UHGV virus genome: UHGV-1356966
Length of the DNA stretch: 36,988 nucleotides
Reading direction: 5' to 3' (one strand)
Source of the DNA: a virus
Within the stretch, counting starts at the first letter, position 1; the number at the start of each line of letters is the position of its first letter. Both the position numbers and the translations under genes were made by a program. A model generated the notes under the pieces. That model ran no database searches. It saw only the letters and a list, made by a program, of their open reading frames with translations, and was not told the origin of the DNA. Below, one piece after another: positions 553 through 35,694 of the stretch.

Positions 553-2051
553 TATTCTTCACTTCCTAAATGTTCCTCAATTATGTTTTGCTCATGCTCT
601 GAGTAATCTATATCAAGAGTTTCAGCCCTAATCTCATATACTATCCTTTTTGCTTCTTTTTCTGTAACTCCAGTAAGTTTTTGAATAGCAGTTAACTTAG
701 ATGTTAAGCCAGCTGTTACTAGTTTAGAGTAATAATCAGCCTTGGCATCTTGCGATTGGAAAACACCATCATCAAAGTCGATATTTATTCCTAATTCTTT
801 GACAGGATTAAATAACTTGTATGCCGCAGCAAGTTCAAAAATCGTAGTGATCAATTCTTTCAACGCTTCTTCTACAATAAGAACATTATCTGACCGAGTA
901 GAAAAAGTTTCAGAGTTTTCACTAATTATCTCTGTCGCTGTTTTAACAGACTGGCCATCAAAACTAAATGTTCCGCTAGAAAAACCTGTCTGGAGCTCAA
1001 TAATTCGTAAAATAAAATTGATACTTGCTATAAATTCAGTTGATCGCAATGATGGAGCGAATTCATCAATAAAAATTTCATCAGATTTAAGCTGTTGAAA
1101 AACAGAGGTTTTACTGTCAAACCGCTTTACTGGTTTTCCATTACTGTCATACTTAACTCTAAAAAAGTGATCAGATGCTAAAATTTTTCTTCTAGCTTCT
1201 TCTATTTCCCACATAAACTCATCGTATTTTTCATTGATATCTGCCAATTGTCGCTTAGCATTATCAATCACGCCCAAACTTAGCGGGCTATCTAAATTAA
1301 TATTATTTTTACCCGCTAGCTTTATATACACAAAAAGAGGACGACTAAAACCATCTAATATCGTCTCCTCCTGCAGATTTTTGTACTTTTCTAAAGAGTT
1401 GAGAGGGATCCTCACACCAACTTGCTTTTGTTCTTCAGATCGATACAATTCGTTTCTTATGCGGTACTTCCCGTCAACCCATTCATGAAATTCTAGCAAA
1501 GTATAATAGATTGTCTTTTGTCCCTCGGCTTGCTGAGTTACAGTAGCGATGGCTGCTTCTGAAATATCATTGGTATTGGATTGTAGAGGGAAAAATGTAT
1601 CAGCTCGACAAAACGAAATTTTGATTTTACCTGAATTAGTATCCACGTAAGGCCTCAAAGCTAAGCCGCCAATGGCATAACCAGCCTCTAGCTCTTCTCC
1701 GAAGTTTTTCCTGAATTTATTGTCAGCAAATACCGACTGCAAAAATTCATCAGCTTTTTCATCATCCAAACTGATGTTGCATCCATCGTTGAATACTAGC
1801 TTAGATAACTTTCTGGACACTACTTTGGATACGTTCAACGAGTGAAAAGGGCGCGTCTGCCTATAACCATCACTATTGATGTATTCTATGTCCCCATAAA
1901 CATTTCTATAAATTTCTTTATTGTTCCTTATTCGACTTAATTCGCTATCACTCATAGCAATCTTTGGATGATCTGTGATACTATTCAACGTTTCAACCAT
2001 TCCTATTTTTGCACCTCCAATCCTAAACAAAGCTTTTAATTTATCGAACAT
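552..2051 (-). CDS. Portal protein
   Basis: 499-aa ORF immediately downstream of terL. Size and position match a siphovirus portal. Confidence 0.8.
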   Translation of the reverse strand: MFDKLKALFRIGGAKIGMVETLNSITDHPKIAMSDSELSRIRNNKEIYRNVYGDIEYINSDGYRQTRPFHSLNVSKVVSRKLSKLVFNDGCNISLDDEKADEFLQSVFADNKFRKNFGEELEAGYAIGGLALRPYVDTNSGKIKISFCRADTFFPLQSNTNDISEAAIATVTQQAEGQKTIYYTLLEFHEWVDGKYRIRNELYRSEEQKQVGVRIPLNSLEKYKNLQEETILDGFSRPLFVYIKLAGKNNINLDSPLSLGVIDNAKRQLADINEKYDEFMWEIEEARRKILASDHFFRVKYDSNGKPVKRFDSKTSVFQQLKSDEIFIDEFAPSLRSTEFIASINFILRIIELQTGFSSGTFSFDGQSVKTATEIISENSETFSTRSDNVLIVEEALKELITTIFELAAAYKLFNPVKELGINIDFDDGVFQSQDAKADYYSKLVTAGLTSKLTAIQKLTGVTEKEAKRIVYEIRAETLDIDYSEHEQNIIEEHLGSEE

Positions 2052-20106: not shown

Positions 20107-20180
20107 TGTACCCTGTAGGACTCGAACCTACGACCGGACGGTTATGAGCCGTCTGCTCTAACCAACTGAGCTAAGGGTAC
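20107..20180 (-). tRNA. tRNA with CAT anticodon (tRNA-Met, or lysidine-modified tRNA-Ile2), 74 nt, no encoded CCA
   Basis: The 7-bp acceptor stem GTACCCT/AGGGTAC, D-arm, anticodon loop CTCATAA and T-arm GTAGG-TTCGAGT-CCTAC all fold by eye. It resembles ileX-type tRNAs. The 3' end faces int. Confidence 0.8.
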
Positions 20181-31100: not shown

Positions 31101-31222
31101 ATGGAAAATCCAGCTTTATCACTACTACCTTCTAATTGATTAAGTTGCTTATTTAAACCTGTCACATCTTTACCATTAACGTCTACATCAATTACAACCT
31201 GTCCATCAGCCATCGTCTTCAC
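28190..31222 (-). CDS. Tail tape measure protein
   Basis: 1010 aa, Ala/Gly/Ile-rich and helical, with internal 22-aa tandem repeats. Sits downstream of the chaperone pair. Confidence 0.85.
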   Translation of the reverse strand: MKTMADGQVVIDVDVNGKDVTGLNKQLNQLEGSSDKAGFSIKNLVVSMGLVKVASAAISTSVNAIKGAFSNAISEGAKLEQSIGGVETLFKENAGIVKNYANQAFKTAGVSANEYMENVTSFSASLISSLGGDTKKAAELANTAMIDMSDNANKMGTDMEAVTQTYQSLARGNYAMLDNLKLGYGGTKSEMERLMKDAEKLTGEHYTIGDFADTVKAIHAVQENLGITGTTAKEAATTISGSFASMKAAMQNVLGKMAIGEDIKDELNELATTTSTFLFGNFIPMVGNILKALPEAIVTFIKAAIPHVKAAFGELLSSISSNFPILGQLFDFISKNAQAFKLFASVIVGAIAGFMAFKGAISIFNSVKVAITGVKAAFTAMKVALLANPFGLILAAVGALTAGLIYLYKTNDNVRNSINNLIGKAKEMLNNFIKSESVSKLFADGLKLISSIGDKVASIIGNIGKNATNSASSIDWFGIAFKTIKAVILALLGPIGLAIKAFELIAKTLGGGDIGKGIDTIMDSFSGLADGIKTYGPQLGSNFGTALEGILTAIGAALPGIISGGLQVVAGFISGLAQGFPQLAVAAAQLITSFTAAVVLLIPTIVLAATSIITSFLGAITVALPQIIAAGAGLINALLQGITQQLPTLVGNMALLITTWLISLNAYMPMIMQAGFNLLITFLQGIANNIGQVTQKALDIVINFAQVIAQNMPTIVNTAVNLMVNFVNSLASRMPDIVKSAVNLIVNFVNGIASNLQAIINAAVNLIVAFLRGIASRINTIVNAAMDLVDAMVRGIIQAQGRLMDAAITLINGFANNIRSRQEEVRGAALNLLDAIIGVFVPDSLYSTGKNIIQGLINGIGSMVGAVTAKISEVAGNIKDKITGALGIHSPSRWMRDYVGKFIPQGIAVGIEADAKSAYSAMNKLSNGLMNSITPESALGTSRMGMASVGSRIVNNTYNNQKQLDVEKLAQVIAKHPVRVSSYLDGTLVGDNMDQRFGKVLNRRSYMRGE
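28822..29155. repeat. Imperfect tandem repeats (about 66 nt / 22 aa, roughly 5 copies) inside the tape measure gene
   Basis: The protein repeats NFVNSLASRMPDIVKSAVNLIV / NFVNGIASNLQAIINAAVNLIV and so on. Coordinates are approximate. Confidence 0.5.
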
Positions 31223-31787
31223 CTACCTCCGAATCAGGCAATGCATATTTTTGTTGTAGCTTTCTCATGCGTTCTTTTTCTTTAGCTGATTCTCCTTTGC
31301 TTGGTTCCCATGTCCTAATCTGCATGATTCGAGCAAGAATGGTGTCATCTGGCAAACTCTCAAGCAGCGCTTGGAATTCCTCCCACATCATCCGTCCTTG
31401 CTCTTCAAATAGATTGATGCCAATTTGTCTGAATGATGCATAGATGTATTTAGCATCATGAACTAGGCTGATGGTTCTTTTTTCCTTAACTGCATTTGGC
31501 ATAGGATTGCCTAAACGGTCAGTTTCAATACCCTCACTACCGCCAACAGAAATATAATTTTCTAAAATATAGTTGAATAATAAAAACTGTTGTTCAGACG
31601 AGCCTTGAAATATTTTTTCAAAGTCACTGATCAACAGTTCTAAACACATATTCACTTTTTCTTCTGGAAACAAATCACTATCTTCCAAAATATCAAAAAC
31701 ATCTAGTACATTATCAAATGTTAAATCGATAGGTAATTCTGTGCCATCAAACTCTATCGAAGTGACTAACGGGTCATTTAACCGCAT
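31206..31787 (-). CDS. Tail assembly chaperone (second of a pair), own RBS
   Basis: The position between the major tail protein and the tape measure protein is conserved. It has an AGGTGAT RBS, and the frame is closed immediately upstream. Confidence 0.5.
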   Translation of the reverse strand: MRLNDPLVTSIEFDGTELPIDLTFDNVLDVFDILEDSDLFPEEKVNMCLELLISDFEKIFQGSSEQQFLLFNYILENYISVGGSEGIETDRLGNPMPNAVKEKRTISLVHDAKYIYASFRQIGINLFEEQGRMMWEEFQALLESLPDDTILARIMQIRTWEPSKGESAKEKERMRKLQQKYALPDSEVGEDDG

Positions 31788-31795
31788 TTAATCAC

Positions 31796-32245
31796 CTACT
31801 TCTTTTTCTTATTTTTCAATGCTTTCTTTTTCAATAAATCAGCTTTCTTCTTAGAAAGAGTATCTTTACGTTTCAAGGCTTCTTTTTCAATTGCTTCCGC
31901 AACTTCAAAAGAAATTGGATCAAATAATTCTATTAATTGTTCTGCATCAGGATAAATAGAATAAATTTTTTCAAATGATCCTTCACCAAGCAACGAATCA
32001 TATTCCACCTTAGCTAAATCTTTCGTTAGAGAAATAATCTTAATAGCGTCTTCTTTTTCAGGCTGCTCGATATTCTCGATTTGTTTAAGTTGCTGTTTAA
32101 GCTCCCTTACCTGTTCCTCAAATTCAGCCTGAACATCAAAAAAACGTGTCAGTTCTTCTGGAGTAGTACCGAAAAAGAACTCTACTTCTCCAATATTGAT
32201 AGGAAAACCTTTTTTCTCTATTTGAAATGATAATTTGTTAGTCAT
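31796..32245 (-). CDS. Tail assembly chaperone (first of a pair), Lys-rich C-terminus
   Basis: Position downstream of the major tail protein. Ends KKKALKNKKKK. Confidence 0.5.
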   Translation of the reverse strand: MTNKLSFQIEKKGFPINIGEVEFFFGTTPEELTRFFDVQAEFEEQVRELKQQLKQIENIEQPEKEDAIKIISLTKDLAKVEYDSLLGEGSFEKIYSIYPDAEQLIELFDPISFEVAEAIEKEALKRKDTLSKKKADLLKKKALKNKKKK

Positions 32246-32285
32246 GTTATCCTCCTAAAAAAGCTGCCCAGACGGACATTTCGGC

Positions 32286-32634
32286 TTATTTTTTGATTAA
32301 TACTACTGATCTGGACCAAGCAGAACCTATGAATGGACCATCGTGTAAATATCGCGCTTTTTCGATTTCATCTTTTCCTTTTCCTTTTCCTAAAACGTTA
32401 TACGCTTGAACATACAGATAAATTTTATTTCCTGGCTCTAATGTCGGAACATCTTCAGCCGCTAACGTCCATGAGGTTTTTTCCGAATATCCCATCATTG
32501 TTGCATCATGAGGATCAGATTGATTAGCATTGCTATAGTGTATAACATAGGCCTGTGCTTTTGGTACGGCATCCCAAGAAAGAGAAATCGATCCATCATT
32601 CAAAACCCCAGTTACGTTCTGGGGTGCATTAGGG
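32286..32634 (-). CDS. +1 frame extension of the major tail protein encoding an FN3-like domain (product of a programmed +1 frameshift at CCC_UAA)
   Basis: The +1 frame is open across the major tail protein stop and reads …VAP-NAPQNVTGVLNDGSISLSWDAVP… The hairpin ACCCCAG-ttacgtt-CTGGGGT (32604..32625) begins 4 nt after the stop. Confidence 0.55.
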
Positions 32635-33087
32635 TGCAACAGGGACGTCTTTTGCTTCTGGTGTGCTATCAAATGCGATACCGCATGAAAAATCACCGTA
32701 TGCAGTAGCATCGCCGACCTGAGCAACTGGCTCTGTTACTGTTGCTTTACCAATACGTTGTTTTTTACCAGATGCAGATACTACTTTGAACCACACTTTC
32801 CGAGCATCTCCTGATTTTCCAATCATGGCCTCAATAGCCGCCATCGCAGCATCATCTTCATCGTATAAACCTGTAAATGAATAACCTAACTGATGAGAAG
32901 TAACGTCTGTCTCCCCTTCGCCGTTCCCATCATAGTAGCCAGTAGTTTCAGATTCTTCGTTCGAATTATCATCAACATTGGAAATCCACTTTGCTAACTC
33001 CAACCAGCCGTCTTCGCTTGGTGTATCAGCATTAGTAGTTGTAATTAATTGAATAAAATAGCTTTGTAAGGCATTTTTGCGTCTCAT
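32629..33087 (-). CDS. Major tail protein
   Basis: 152 aa, upstream of the chaperones. Ends …DVPVAP followed by UAA. Confidence 0.7.
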   Translation of the reverse strand: MRRKNALQSYFIQLITTTNADTPSEDGWLELAKWISNVDDNSNEESETTGYYDGNGEGETDVTSHQLGYSFTGLYDEDDAAMAAIEAMIGKSGDARKVWFKVVSASGKKQRIGKATVTEPVAQVGDATAYGDFSCGIAFDSTPEAKDVPVAP

Positions 33088-34555: not shown

Positions 34556-34581
34556 AAAAAAAAGAGGGAGCTATGCCCCTC
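34556..34581 (-). terminator. Intrinsic terminator after the capsid unit
   Basis: Minus-strand hairpin GAGGGG-cata-GCTCCCTC followed by UUUUUUUU. Confidence 0.5.
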
Positions 34582-34846
34582 CTCCTTCTATTACAGTAAC
34601 TTCACAAGTTGCTGTTTTACCATTTACTGTTGTTGCAGTAATCGTTGCTGTTCCTTTGGCAACACCTGCCGCTTTACCTTGTTTTAGCGTCACACTTGCG
34701 ATAGATGCATCACTAGAACTAAAAGTTACTGTTTTATCTGTAGCTTCTTCTGGTAAAACCGTAGCCACCAATGTTTCTGTAGCCCCTACTTCAAGCGTTA
34801 GAGTTGTTTTATTTAACGTAACACTTGAAGGGGCTACGCTTTTGGG
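34571..34846 (-). CDS. -1 frame extension of the major capsid protein encoding a Big_2 Ig-like domain (product of a programmed -1 frameshift at C_CCA_AAA)
   Basis: The -1 frame is open from 34870 down to 34571. It reads …[55 protein letters not shown]…, a full Big_2 domain. The heptamer lies at minus 34846..34840. A 14-bp interrupted stem follows 2 nt downstream. Confidence 0.55.
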
Positions 34847-35694
34847 ACGTAAGAAACATAGATAGCTTTTTTAGCGTTGTCGAATACGATAGCATCATAG
34901 TAATCTAAACCTTTAATCGTATCTCGATAGCCGCTTCGATCTTGTGATGCTGGCACTGTGTCGACTGTACCAAACTTAACAATAGGCGCCACTGCAGTTA
35001 GTGGAACGATAATGAAGTTAAGTGTGTCTTCAATAGTTATTCCAGAAAAACGATCTTTCGCTACTTTTAGAATAGGGACACCCCCATCAATCTGAGCTAC
35101 TGTTCTATCAATTCCATTAATAGACATTTGGTTTGTCGTGAATGTTTTGCTAACACCTTTGGCATTTTTTAATAAACGATAAGTAGCTGCTGATACAAAC
35201 ATTACGTAGCCACCAGGAACTTCATTGTCAGTCATATATTCTTCAGCGGCATCATATGCAGCTAGAATATTGTCTTCGGTTAAAGTTTCGTTCACTTTTT
35301 TACCGGCATTGTCATACATTACTTGAACAGCAACTTTATCTCTATGTGGAACAGTGATTAAACGTTTGTGTTCAGTTACAATATTGTTAATAGTTAGTGC
35401 AGCACTTTCAGATTGATCGAGTTGATCTACGTCATACCCAAACCAATCTTCGTGAGTTAATCTAATTGTTTCTTTTTCAATACTAATTTGATTACGAGCG
35501 TTTTCTCCGTTCCGTTGATATTGTGTCGCATCAACGAATCCTGACATTTTGTTGATACGTACTTCGTTTGCGCCAACAAAGTCAGCTGCAGTGATACTTT
35601 TTGCACCTTGAATTAAGACATCCCACACTTGAGAGTCAGCTCTAAATTCTTTGTCAATGGTTGCTAAATCTTTTGAGTCTAATACTAAAGCCAT
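34834..35694 (-). CDS. Major capsid protein
   Basis: 286 aa, directly after the scaffold gene and followed by a strong terminator. Confidence 0.8.

What the first reader, a model, noticed from the sequence alone, without database searches (positions are those of the whole stretch)
32286..32660. Programmed +1 frameshift at CCC_UAA appends an FN3-like domain to the major tail protein
The major tail protein ends GTT GCA CCC UAA U. The +1 frame is open from 32735 down to 32286. After a P-site tRNA-Pro slip from CCC to CCU it reads NAPQNVTGVLNDGSISLSWDAVPKAQAYVIHYS…, a fibronectin-III / Ig-like fold start. A 7-bp hairpin (ACCCCAG ttacgtt CTGGGGT, 32604..32625) begins 4 nt after the stop codon. Slippage at a hungry stop codon following CCC is an established +1 mechanism, and phage PSA tail and capsid proteins were reported to use +1 shifts. 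The result would be a tail tube decorated at sub-stoichiometric levels with Ig-like domains.
Basis: partly seen in the sequence, partly recalled or inferred. Interest (0 to 1): 0.7.

Follow-up and report, generated by a model that had tools for sequence, protein, structure and literature searches.

The report
Frameshift adds FN3 domain to tail tube
An Enterococcus prophage very probably makes a second, longer tail-tube protein carrying a fibronectin-like surface domain, by slipping the ribosome forward one base at CCC-UAA; this trick is already proven in Bacillus phage SPP1 and Listeria phages, so it is a new example of a known mechanism.

Summary
The 152-aa major tail protein (33087..32629, minus strand) ends GCA CCC TAA T. 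The +1 frame is open from 32735 to 32286. From the junction it encodes a 114-aa FN3 domain (AlphaFold pLDDT 93; top PDB matches are FN3 domains).

The same junction (NCN CCC TAA TGC NCC CCA GAA, peptide P|NAPQN) drives the proven +1 frameshift of SPP1 gp17.1/gp17.1*. The tail protein is a homologue of Listeria A118 Tsh, which shifts +1 at CCC_UGA.

In related phages the CCC-stop-plus-FN3 unit follows four unrelated tail-tube families and three capsid families. Identity to the window begins about 6 nt before the stop. Among the seven relatives of this tail protein checked, CCC-stop occurs only in the two that carry a +1 Ig-like ORF.

The 7-bp hairpin is real (-11.5 kcal/mol). Its synonymous sites are frozen and it shows a few compensatory changes. 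It is missing from SPP1 and several other cassettes, so it is an optional enhancer at most.

Some relatives have mutated CCC yet keep the ORF. This is unexplained.

Verdict: new member of a known kind, modest interest.

The parts
32629..33087 (-). Major tail (tube) protein, zero frame, 152 aa plus TAA stop. This is the short isoform, 16.4 kDa.
   Evidence: ORF list and translation. phrog_820 major tail protein, E 5e-53. 36.6% identity to Listeria A118 Tsh over residues 1-143. Same gene order as A118: tsh, overlapping ORF, terminator, gp14-like, Phage_Gp15, tape measure.
32628..32634 (-). Shift site CCC_UAA_U. P-site tRNA-Pro re-pairs from CCC to CCU, and the next codon read is AAU (Asn).
   Evidence: Sequence. 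CCC is 7.6% of Pro codons and this is the only CCC-stop gene end among 54 ORFs. CCC-stop is kept in 19 of the 22 distinct cassette junctions that sit at a gene end, and also in L021, L024, L086-88, L093-97 and SPP1. SPP1 CCCUAA is proven experimentally (PMC6316719).
32605..32625 (-). Hairpin: 7-bp stem ACCCCAG/CUGGGGU with a 7-nt loop AACGUAA, 3 nt after the stop. Candidate stimulator of the shift.
   Evidence: -11.5 kcal/mol, z -2.6. Fourfold-degenerate sites of the invariant block (the stem codons CCC, ACU and GGG plus the loop codon GUA) never vary (0 of 4), against 18 of 18 conserved fourfold sites in the FN3 body. Compensatory A-U to G-C in L087, L095 and L096, A-U to U-A in L097, C-G to U.G in L093. 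93.7% of cells paired, covariation score reached by 17 of 500 shuffles.
32286..32630 (-). +1-frame extension: 114 codons plus TAA, encoding an FN3-type domain with one inserted helix. Translated only as the C-terminus of the long isoform (266 aa, 28.9 kDa).
   Evidence: Pfam fn3 E 3e-5, 24.6 bits against a cutoff of 25. phrog_7440 major-tail-protein C-terminus, E 8e-40. AlphaFold2 pLDDT 93.2, pTM 0.86. Best PDB matches are FN3 domains, probability 1.00, TM 0.5-0.63. pN/pS 0.13-0.35 against relatives. 48-49% identical to the in-frame C-terminal domain of phiFL4A gp45.
32255..32278 (-). Weak terminator-like hairpin and T-run just after the extension ORF.
   Evidence: Consensus scan found one site, a 5-bp stem followed by GCTTTTTT. 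A118 has a putative terminator annotated at the same position after gp13.

Best explanation
This is a programmed +1 ribosomal frameshift at the last sense codon of the major tail protein gene.

Proposed mechanism: the ribosome holds peptidyl-tRNA-Pro on the rare codon CCC in the P site while UAA sits in the A site. A fraction of ribosomes re-pair the tRNA on the overlapping CCU. They then read AAU GCA CCC CAG... and append a 114-aa FN3 domain. The junction peptide would be ...DVPVAP|NAPQNVTG....

Most ribosomes terminate and give the 16.4-kDa tube subunit. The shifted ones give a 28.9-kDa subunit that co-assembles into the tube and displays FN3 domains on the tail surface. A hairpin 3 nt after the stop lies near where the mRNA would enter the ribosome when CCC is in the P site. 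It probably raises the shift frequency.

Shown here: the sequence anatomy, the fold, the coding constraint, and conservation of the signal across unrelated host genes.

Inferred from homologues: that the shift occurs, that the long form enters virions, and that the domain helps adsorption to cell-wall carbohydrate.
For: 1. Anatomy.

2. Same junction as a proven case. SPP1 gene 17.1 ends GCT CCC TAA TGC GCC CCA GAA, and the window has GCA CCC TAA TGC ACC CCA GAA. Both give P|NAPQN followed by FN3. In SPP1 the CCCUAA +1 shift and the 3:1 gp17.1:gp17.1* ratio were demonstrated (PMC6316719; PMC8718954).

3. The tail protein is in the A118 Tsh family. A118, A500 and PSA tsh all shift +1 at CCC_UGA (PMC5009743). 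A118 reads ACA AAA CCC TGA G into a Big_2 ORF.

4. Within phrog_820, the two relatives checked that carry a +1 Ig-like ORF end in CCC-stop (A118, EC99P2), as does the window. The five without such an ORF end in ATG, GGT, GGG, CCT or GGA.

5. The CCC-stop-FN3 unit follows four tail-tube families: phrog_820, phrog_238/PF06199, phrog_117/PF25681, and the phiFL4A-gp45 type (assigned by eye from the C-terminal sequence, not by a profile search). It also follows three capsid families: phrog_10, phrog_544 and phrog_422. Upstream identity is 9-24 of 54 nt, about the level expected by chance, and jumps to 30-34 of 36 nt from position -6.

6. In phiFL4A gp45 a homologous FN3 is fused in frame to the tail protein, with no CCC-stop and no hairpin.

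7. There is no conserved start. Of 69 database ORFs for this domain, 42 have called ORFs that span the junction (per the motif used); their N-terminal leaders are unrelated +1-frame read-through of the upstream gene and vary in length. 39 of them (two added by eye) have Pro immediately before the junction. Most of the remaining ORFs were called from a Met inside the domain. No promoter-like site was found and no SD-like motif is visible in the sequence read upstream of the nearest TTG.

8. The ORF is under purifying selection and folds as FN3.
Against: There is no protein-level or reporter evidence for this phage.

Four kinds of relative have lost CCC but keep an intact FN3 ORF: CAC, TCC, CCA, and CCA plus an upstream TAG. 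So the ORF can persist, at least for a while, without the canonical site.

The stop context UAA_U is a strong terminator in E. coli (my own knowledge). That would not favour a long pause.

The hairpin's covariation support is thin: 2 pairs with double changes, and 148 of 500 shuffles reach that count. Proven or likely frameshift cassettes lack the hairpin: SPP1, L024, L088, L045/46 and L094.
Confidence: 0.85

Rival explanations
1. The FN3 ORF is translated independently, as databases annotate it. NCBI calls it 'fibronectin type III domain-containing protein', starting MHPNAPQ... at the TTG 32639..32637 or at the TTG 32726. This would give a free 12-16 kDa protein, either by de novo initiation or by termination-reinitiation after the tail protein stop.
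For: Gene callers do call it as a separate gene: P0013 is 115 aa and starts MHP, and 69 clusters are similar. The ORF listing ORF 32726..32286 starts at TTG. Lineages that lost CCC still keep the ORF intact. Some of them have an ATG in the +1 frame 7 codons upstream.
Against: No SD-like motif is visible in the sequence read before either TTG, and no promoter-like site was found.

The position and type of the called start differ in every host gene, and many calls begin inside the domain. No start is conserved, whereas CCC-stop is.

The FN3 fold starts at the junction.

A homologous domain is covalently part of the tail protein in phiFL4A gp45 and in SPP1 gp17.1*.

A free FN3 domain has no evident way to join the virion.
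Confidence: 0.07
2. The extension is a silent relic. The cassette was acquired by recombination and is no longer, or only negligibly, expressed in this prophage.
For: Close relatives carry mutated shift sites: CCA in L091, whose tail protein 3' end is otherwise identical, and CAC and TCC in the sister lineage. One relative (L021) has an internally deleted 30-aa remnant. SPP1 is viable without gp17.1*, so the domain is dispensable.
Against: In the window itself CCC, UAA, the hairpin and the 114-codon ORF are all intact. The ORF shows pN/pS 0.13-0.35. The stem's synonymous sites are frozen. In lineages that lost CCC the few changes lean nonsynonymous, which is what loss of expression would predict and therefore implies expression where CCC is present.
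Confidence: 0.06
3. The apparent frameshift is an assembly or sequencing indel in what is really one in-frame tail protein-FN3 gene.
For: An in-frame version exists in phiFL4A gp45.
Against: The identical +1 arrangement recurs in dozens of independent assemblies. These include IMG/VR, GenBank phage 4995_2, metagenomes, Logan and SPP1. There is no homopolymer longer than 4 at the junction.
Confidence: 0.01

Closest known systems
Bacillus phage SPP1 gp17.1 / gp17.1* (Auzat et al. 2008, as described in PMC6316719 and PMC8718954)
   Same: +1 shift at CCC.UAA on the last codon of the tail tube gene. The junction is near-identical in nucleotides (CCC TAA TGC NCC CCA GAA) and identical in peptide (P|NAPQN). 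The appended domain is FN3 and is weakly homologous (29% identity, pairwise E 1e-7). The domain is non-essential and surface-exposed.
   Different: The tube domain belongs to a different family (PF06199/phrog_238 against phrog_820; no significant similarity). The SPP1 extension is 87 aa without the inserted helix. SPP1 lacks the local CCCCAG/CUGGGG hairpin.
Listeria phages A118, A500 and PSA Tsh / Tsh-L (Zimmer 2003 and Dorscht 2009, as summarised in PMC5009743)
   Same: Homologous tail protein (A118 Tsh 36.6% identity, phrog_820). Same gene order. +1 shift on CCC followed by a stop. A118 and A500 also use a -1 shift in the capsid gene, and this window has a C_CCA_AAA -1 site leading to Big_2 after its capsid gene.
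   Different: The stop is UGA, not UAA. In A118 the appended domain is Big_2, not FN3. No equivalent hairpin is predicted for A118.
Lactococcal 936-group phage PhiC0139 MTP-TpeX (PMC4759559)
   Same: +1 'shifty stop' CCC.UAG at the 3' end of the tail protein gene. The fusion was detected in virions, and the extension decorates the tail.
   Different: The stop codon, the tail protein family and the appended carbohydrate-binding module all differ.
Enterococcus phage phiFL4A gp45 (and EFP1, AE4_2)
   Same: A homologous FN3 domain (48-49% identity) at the C-terminus of a major tail protein.
   Different: The fusion is in frame, with no CCC-stop and no hairpin. The tail protein family differs. L099 shows this same tail protein family carrying the frameshift version.

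Membership tests
CCC-stop +1 programmed frameshift in Firmicutes siphophage structural genes (SPP1 17.1*, Listeria tsh, 936 mtp-tpeX) | The last sense codon of a major structural gene is CCC, directly followed by a stop codon beginning with U, so that CCC and CCU overlap. | tested here: met
   GCA CCC TAA T at 32637..32628. It is the only such gene end among 54 ORFs.
CCC-stop +1 programmed frameshift in Firmicutes siphophage structural genes (SPP1 17.1*, Listeria tsh, 936 mtp-tpeX) | The +1 frame is open across the stop and encodes a folded accessory (Ig-like or carbohydrate-binding) domain with no start of its own. | tested here: met
   The frame is open 32735..32286. FN3 fold. No conserved start or SD.
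CCC-stop +1 programmed frameshift in Firmicutes siphophage structural genes (SPP1 17.1*, Listeria tsh, 936 mtp-tpeX) | The shift signal is conserved in relatives independently of the flanking coding sequence. | tested here: met
   CCC-stop is retained behind 4 tail-tube and 3 capsid families, with random identity upstream of -6. A minority of relatives have lost it.
CCC-stop +1 programmed frameshift in Firmicutes siphophage structural genes (SPP1 17.1*, Listeria tsh, 936 mtp-tpeX) | Two protein products share an N-terminus and differ at the C-terminus, and a junction peptide is present in virions. | not testable with these tools
   This needs SDS-PAGE and mass spectrometry of induced particles or a reporter assay.
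A118 Tsh-type major tail protein (phrog_820) | Sequence membership and the tail-module gene order. | tested here: met
   phrog_820 E 5e-53 over 147 of 155 profile positions. tblastn to A118 tsh E 1e-12. Downstream gp14-like ORF (phrog_1061), Phage_Gp15 (PF06854, E 5e-41) and a 1010-aa ORF in the tape-measure position (not profiled).
Fibronectin type III domain (Pfam PF00041) | Profile match at or above the gathering score. | tested here: inconclusive
   24.6 bits against a cutoff of 25.0, E 3e-5, covering profile positions 3-81 of 84.
Fibronectin type III domain (Pfam PF00041) | Seven-strand Ig-like beta sandwich that superposes on solved FN3 domains. | tested here: met
   AF2 pLDDT 93.2. The top 50 Foldseek PDB matches are FN3 modules, monobodies or cytokine-receptor FN3 domains, probability 1.00. 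An extra helix at residues 88-97 is atypical.
Downstream RNA stimulator of frameshifting | A stable structure 3-9 nt after the shift site, conserved by selection on the RNA. | tested here: inconclusive
   Present and stable. Synonymous sites are frozen. There are 4 compensatory cells in 2 pairs, a count reached by 8 of 500 shuffles. The number of pairs with a double change is not significant, reached by 148 of 500 shuffles. The structure is absent from SPP1 and four other cassette lineages. Its effect on shifting is untested.

The most novel reading that the evidence does not exclude
The shift signal is not a chance product of out-of-frame domain insertion. It is part of a portable recoding cassette: NCN-CCC-UAA/UAG, usually a 6-7-bp hairpin with a 7-nt loop, and an FN3 domain.

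This cassette appears to recombine as a unit, with its upstream breakpoint about 6 nt before the stop. It sits behind at least four tail-tube and three capsid gene families in Enterococcus, Lactococcus, Carnobacterium, Streptococcus and Bacillus (SPP1) phages.

It would let any abundant virion protein acquire sub-stoichiometric FN3 display in one step. It is repeatedly switched off by single-base changes of CCC. Its invariant junction is conserved enough to be the target of a host CRISPR spacer.
Probability: 0.6. Interest if true: 0.5.

Novelty: new member of a known kind. Interest (0 to 1): 0.3.

Why it matters
For this locus the practical point is annotation. Databases list the FN3 ORF as a separate small gene (69 clusters), when it is almost certainly the C-terminus of a second tail-tube isoform. 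Correct annotation changes the predicted virion composition of many Enterococcus, Lactococcus and Carnobacterium prophages.

More generally, the comparative set gives a natural experiment on what a +1 'shifty stop' needs. The same FN3 domain occurs with CCC-stop plus hairpin, with CCC-stop alone, with a mutated CCC, and fused in frame. The set also suggests that recoding signals can travel with the domain they serve.

FN3 and Ig decorations are thought to aid weak adhesion to cell-wall carbohydrate (PMC8718954). Their presence could therefore matter for the host range of therapeutic enterococcal phages.

Tried and rejected
Stop-codon readthrough. The zero frame hits TGA 10 codons after TAA, so readthrough cannot reach the domain.

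Transcriptional slippage. There is no homopolymer run at the junction.

A -1 shift. The -1 frame is closed: after the stop it runs only 5 codons in the close relatives L014 and L001, whose sequence there matches the window apart from one base, and the window's own frame-2 stops are listed.

Another shift site upstream in the 104-nt overlap. This is unlikely, because cassette-bearing genes share nothing upstream of about -6.

An upstream internal SD stimulator as in prfB. No SD-like motif is visible in the sequence read, and none could be conserved given the unrelated upstream genes.

A pseudoknot through the loop. The loop sequence varies freely among relatives (AAYGUAA, AGCGUAA, AAUUUAG, GGCUUAA, AAUGUGA, GGUACAA) while its length stays at 7 nt.

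A known RNA family. Rfam gave only a sub-threshold chance hit on the wrong strand.

A phage-encoded tRNA-Pro. Only a tRNA-Met is present.

Searches that gave nothing. The first genome contigs protein scan found no relatives. A search with the fused 266-aa protein found only the 147-164-aa tail-protein part and no in-frame phrog_820-FN3 fusion. Dorscht 2009 (guessed id PMC2786548) is not held, so the A118/A500 details rest on the Atkins 2016 review.

Full report
**What is there**

The window is phage or prophage DNA of Enterococcus faecium type. Its closest GenBank record is Enterococcus phage 4995_2, at 90.6% identity over the region. IMG/VR contigs carry identical tail proteins.

The structural genes lie on the minus strand. 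The order is:
- major head protein (35694..34834, phrog_422);
- head-tail connector genes;
- a 152-aa major tail protein (33087..32629; phrog_820, E 5e-53);
- an overlapping ORF;
- a weak terminator;
- a gp14-like ORF;
- a Phage_Gp15 protein;
- a 1010-aa ORF in the tape-measure position (not profiled).

Listeria phage A118 has the same order: tsh, gp13, terminator, gp14, gp15, tmp. The tail protein is 36.6% identical to A118 Tsh.

**Checking the observation**

- The tail protein ends GTT GCA CCC TAA T.
- The +1 frame is open from 32735 to the stop at 32288..32286.
- From the junction it reads NAPQNVTGVLNDGSISLSWDAVPKAQAYVIHYS..., 114 aa.
It starts 3 nt after the stop.
- It folds at -11.5 kcal/mol (z -2.6 in a 40-nt context). 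Over 81 nt the whole-segment z is only -1.1.
- The long isoform would be 266 aa and 28.9 kDa.
- CCC is the rarest Pro codon in the window (7.6%). This is the only one of 54 ORFs ending in CCC-stop.

**Is the +1 ORF a real protein domain?**

- Pfam fn3 scores 24.6 bits, just under the 25-bit cutoff.
- PHROGs places it at the C-terminus of a major-tail-protein family (phrog_7440, E 8e-40).
- An AlphaFold2 model built on 35 homologues has pLDDT 93.2.
- Its best PDB matches are all FN3 modules, including the 10th FN3 of fibronectin, monobodies and cytokine-receptor domains (probability 1.00, TM 0.5-0.63). One extra helix lies at residues 88-97.
- Pairwise pN/pS against relatives is 0.13-0.35.

The ORF is therefore translated and constrained as protein.

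**Is it joined to the tail protein by frameshifting?**

Five lines of evidence say yes.

(i) Precedent with the same junction. SPP1 gene 17.1 ends GCT CCC TAA TGC GCC CCA GAA, and its +1 frame gives P|NAPQNLT... followed by FN3. The window has GCA CCC TAA TGC ACC CCA GAA, giving P|NAPQNVT.... For SPP1, the CCCUAA +1 shift, the 87-aa FN3 extension, the roughly 3:1 gp17.1:gp17.1* ratio and the dispensability of the long form are experimentally established (PMC6316719; PMC8718954).

(ii) Precedent in the same tail protein family. The tsh genes of A118, A500 and PSA all shift +1 at (AAA) CCC_UGA (PMC5009743). A118 reads ACA AAA CCC TGA G into a Big_2 ORF. A lactococcal 936 phage does the same at CCC.UAG (PMC4759559).

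(iii) Correlation inside phrog_820. I inspected seven relatives. The two with a +1 Ig-like ORF (A118, EC99P2) end in CCC-stop. The five without one end in ATG, GGT, GGG, CCT or GGA and run straight into a terminator.

(iv) The signal is conserved independently of the host gene. The FN3 domain preceded by CCC-TAA or CCC-TAG follows the tail-tube families phrog_820, phrog_238/PF06199 (the SPP1 family), phrog_117/PF25681 and the phiFL4A-gp45 type. That last family was assigned by eye from the C-terminal sequence, not by a profile search. It also follows the capsid families phrog_10, phrog_544 and phrog_422. Between such loci, identity is 9-24 of 54 nt upstream of position -6, about the level expected by chance. 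It is 30-34 of 36 nt across the junction, and about 60% in the FN3 body. The only thing these genes share before the stop is NCN-CCC, which pins the shift site to CCC.

(v) No independent start. Databases hold 69 clusters of this domain as small separate ORFs. In 42 of them (per the motif used) the called ORF spans the junction, and the N-terminal leaders are unrelated +1-frame read-through of variable length. Most of the remaining ORFs were called from a Met inside the domain. Of the ORFs that span the junction, 39 (two added by eye) have Pro immediately before the first FN3 residue. In the window no SD-like motif is visible in the sequence read upstream of the nearest TTG, and no promoter-like site was found.

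Conversely, phiFL4A gp45 carries a homologous FN3 (48-49% identity) fused in frame to its tail protein, without CCC-stop or hairpin. A metagenomic relative of that same tail protein (L099) carries the frameshift version, with both CCC-stop and hairpin.

**The hairpin**

Nine divergent hairpin-bearing cassettes were compared.
- The fourfold-degenerate codons in the invariant block (the stem codons CCC, ACU and GGG plus the loop codon GUA) never vary, 0 of 4.
- All 18 conserved fourfold sites in the FN3 body do vary. By my own Fisher calculation this gives p of about 1e-4.
- The wobble positions just outside the stem, and one in the loop, vary freely.
- Wider sampling shows structure-preserving changes: A-U to G-C in L087, L095 and L096; A-U to U-A in L097; C-G to U.G in L093.
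- Loop sequence differs among relatives, but loop length is always 7 nt.
- On 18 sequences, 93.7% of cells pair. Four cells are compensatory (8 of 500 shuffles reach this) and the covariation score is 0.147 (17 of 500). Only 2 pairs show double changes, which is not significant (148 of 500).

The hairpin is absent from SPP1, L024, L088, L045/46, L094 and A118. My reading is that the hairpin is a selected enhancer in one large sub-lineage of the cassette and not a requirement of the mechanism.

**What does not fit**

Several relatives have a mutated CCC but an intact FN3 ORF:
- ACA CAC TAA: a widespread lineage with 22 loci and 3 distinct sequences, which include the three metagenome contigs L100, L101 and L103;
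- ACA TCC TAA, together with a G-to-T change in the stem (phage 4995_2 and L014);
- GCA CCA TAA (L091, whose tail protein 3' end is otherwise identical to the window's);
- L089, with CCA plus a premature TAG.

In the CAC and TCC lineages, the extension differs from the CCC-group consensus at 2-3 nonsynonymous and 0-2 synonymous codons. The tail protein in the CAC genomes shows 6 synonymous changes and 1 nonsynonymous change, and in the TCC genomes 2 and 1. That leans toward relaxed constraint after loss of the site, as expected if CCC is needed for expression. The counts are too small to test.

One caveat is my own inference. ACA_CAC_UAA would allow a -2 re-pairing of tRNA-His on the overlapping CAC, which lands in the same frame. 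Only an experiment can say whether this happens.

**Rivals**

- Independent initiation, as in the database annotation: about 7%.
- Silent relic in this particular prophage: about 6%.
- Assembly indel: about 1%.
- Readthrough, -1 shifting, transcriptional slippage and a known Rfam element were excluded.

**Comparison and novelty**

This works like, and by junction sequence is related to, the SPP1 gp17.1* site. Its tail protein is a member of the Listeria Tsh family that uses CCC_UGA. It is a new member of a known kind.

The part that may be new is comparative. The CCC-stop signal, often with the hairpin, appears to travel with the FN3 domain as a cassette across at least seven structural-gene families. 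This differs from the published suggestion that whether a domain is reached in frame or out of frame reflects chance (PMC5009743). I did not find this described, but my literature search was limited.

**Verdict**

- Observation: confirmed.
- Interpretation: supported. SPP1, not PSA, is the closest precedent.
- Confidence that a long tail protein-FN3 isoform is made by a +1 shift at CCC_UAA: about 0.85.
- Interest: 0.3.

Noticed in passing
window 34571..34846 (-), with the capsid gene at 35694..34834 (-): The major head protein (phrog_422) has a canonical -1 slippery heptamer C_CCA_AAA at 34846..34840, two codons before its TAG. The -1 frame then encodes an 89-aa extension with a Big_2 domain (Pfam E 1.9e-11). 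The site is conserved in phage 4995_2. This phage therefore probably uses -1 shifting for the capsid and +1 for the tail, as Listeria A118 and A500 do (PMC5009743).
   Followed up: partly
L079 7309..7338 (Candidatus Enterococcus courvalinii NZ_JAFLWI010000002.1): The only hit to the junction motif in the species-representative genomes is a CRISPR spacer, TAATGCCCCCCAGAATGTAACTGGGGTTCT. It sits in an array of 36-nt repeats with a 66-nt period. It matches the stop codon plus hairpin of the FN3 cassette, so host immunity targets this conserved element.
   Followed up: partly
L099 (metagenome contig k87-727561) versus L002 (phiFL4A gp45): The same tail protein family carries the FN3 domain in two ways. 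In L099 it uses CCC_TAA plus the hairpin in the +1 frame. In phiFL4A it is fused in frame through a PGTSNNPVPVRPEVP linker, with no hairpin. This is a natural matched pair for testing the signal.
   Followed up: partly
L094 (GCA_022712435.1 contig), gene 612..1553: A phrog_422 capsid protein, the same family as the window's capsid, ends GCA CCC TAA T and continues in the +1 frame into the FN3 domain. The window's capsid instead uses a -1 site to reach Big_2.
   Followed up: partly
L021 (IMGVR_UViG_2606217799_000001), just after its tail protein: A relative with a 93%-identical tail protein keeps CCC TAA and a hairpin with an altered loop (CCCCAG AAUUUAG CUGGGG). Its FN3 ORF is cut down to 30 codons, apparently by an internal deletion.
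   Followed up: no
window 32286..32630 compared with L026 and similar loci: The window's extension has a GKGKGK run (AAA GGA repeated three times). Near-identical relatives have GKGK, two residues shorter. This is a small tandem hexanucleotide expansion in a surface loop, and pLDDT is lowest there.
   Followed up: no
window 20107..20180 (-): A tRNA-Met (CAT) gene lies inside the window. No tRNA-Pro is encoded.
   Followed up: no
window 31206..32245 (-): The two ORFs between the tail protein extension and the tape-measure gene (gp14-like, 149 aa, and Phage_Gp15, 193 aa) are separate genes 8 nt apart. I saw no obvious overlapping G/GT-type -1 frameshift.
   Followed up: no
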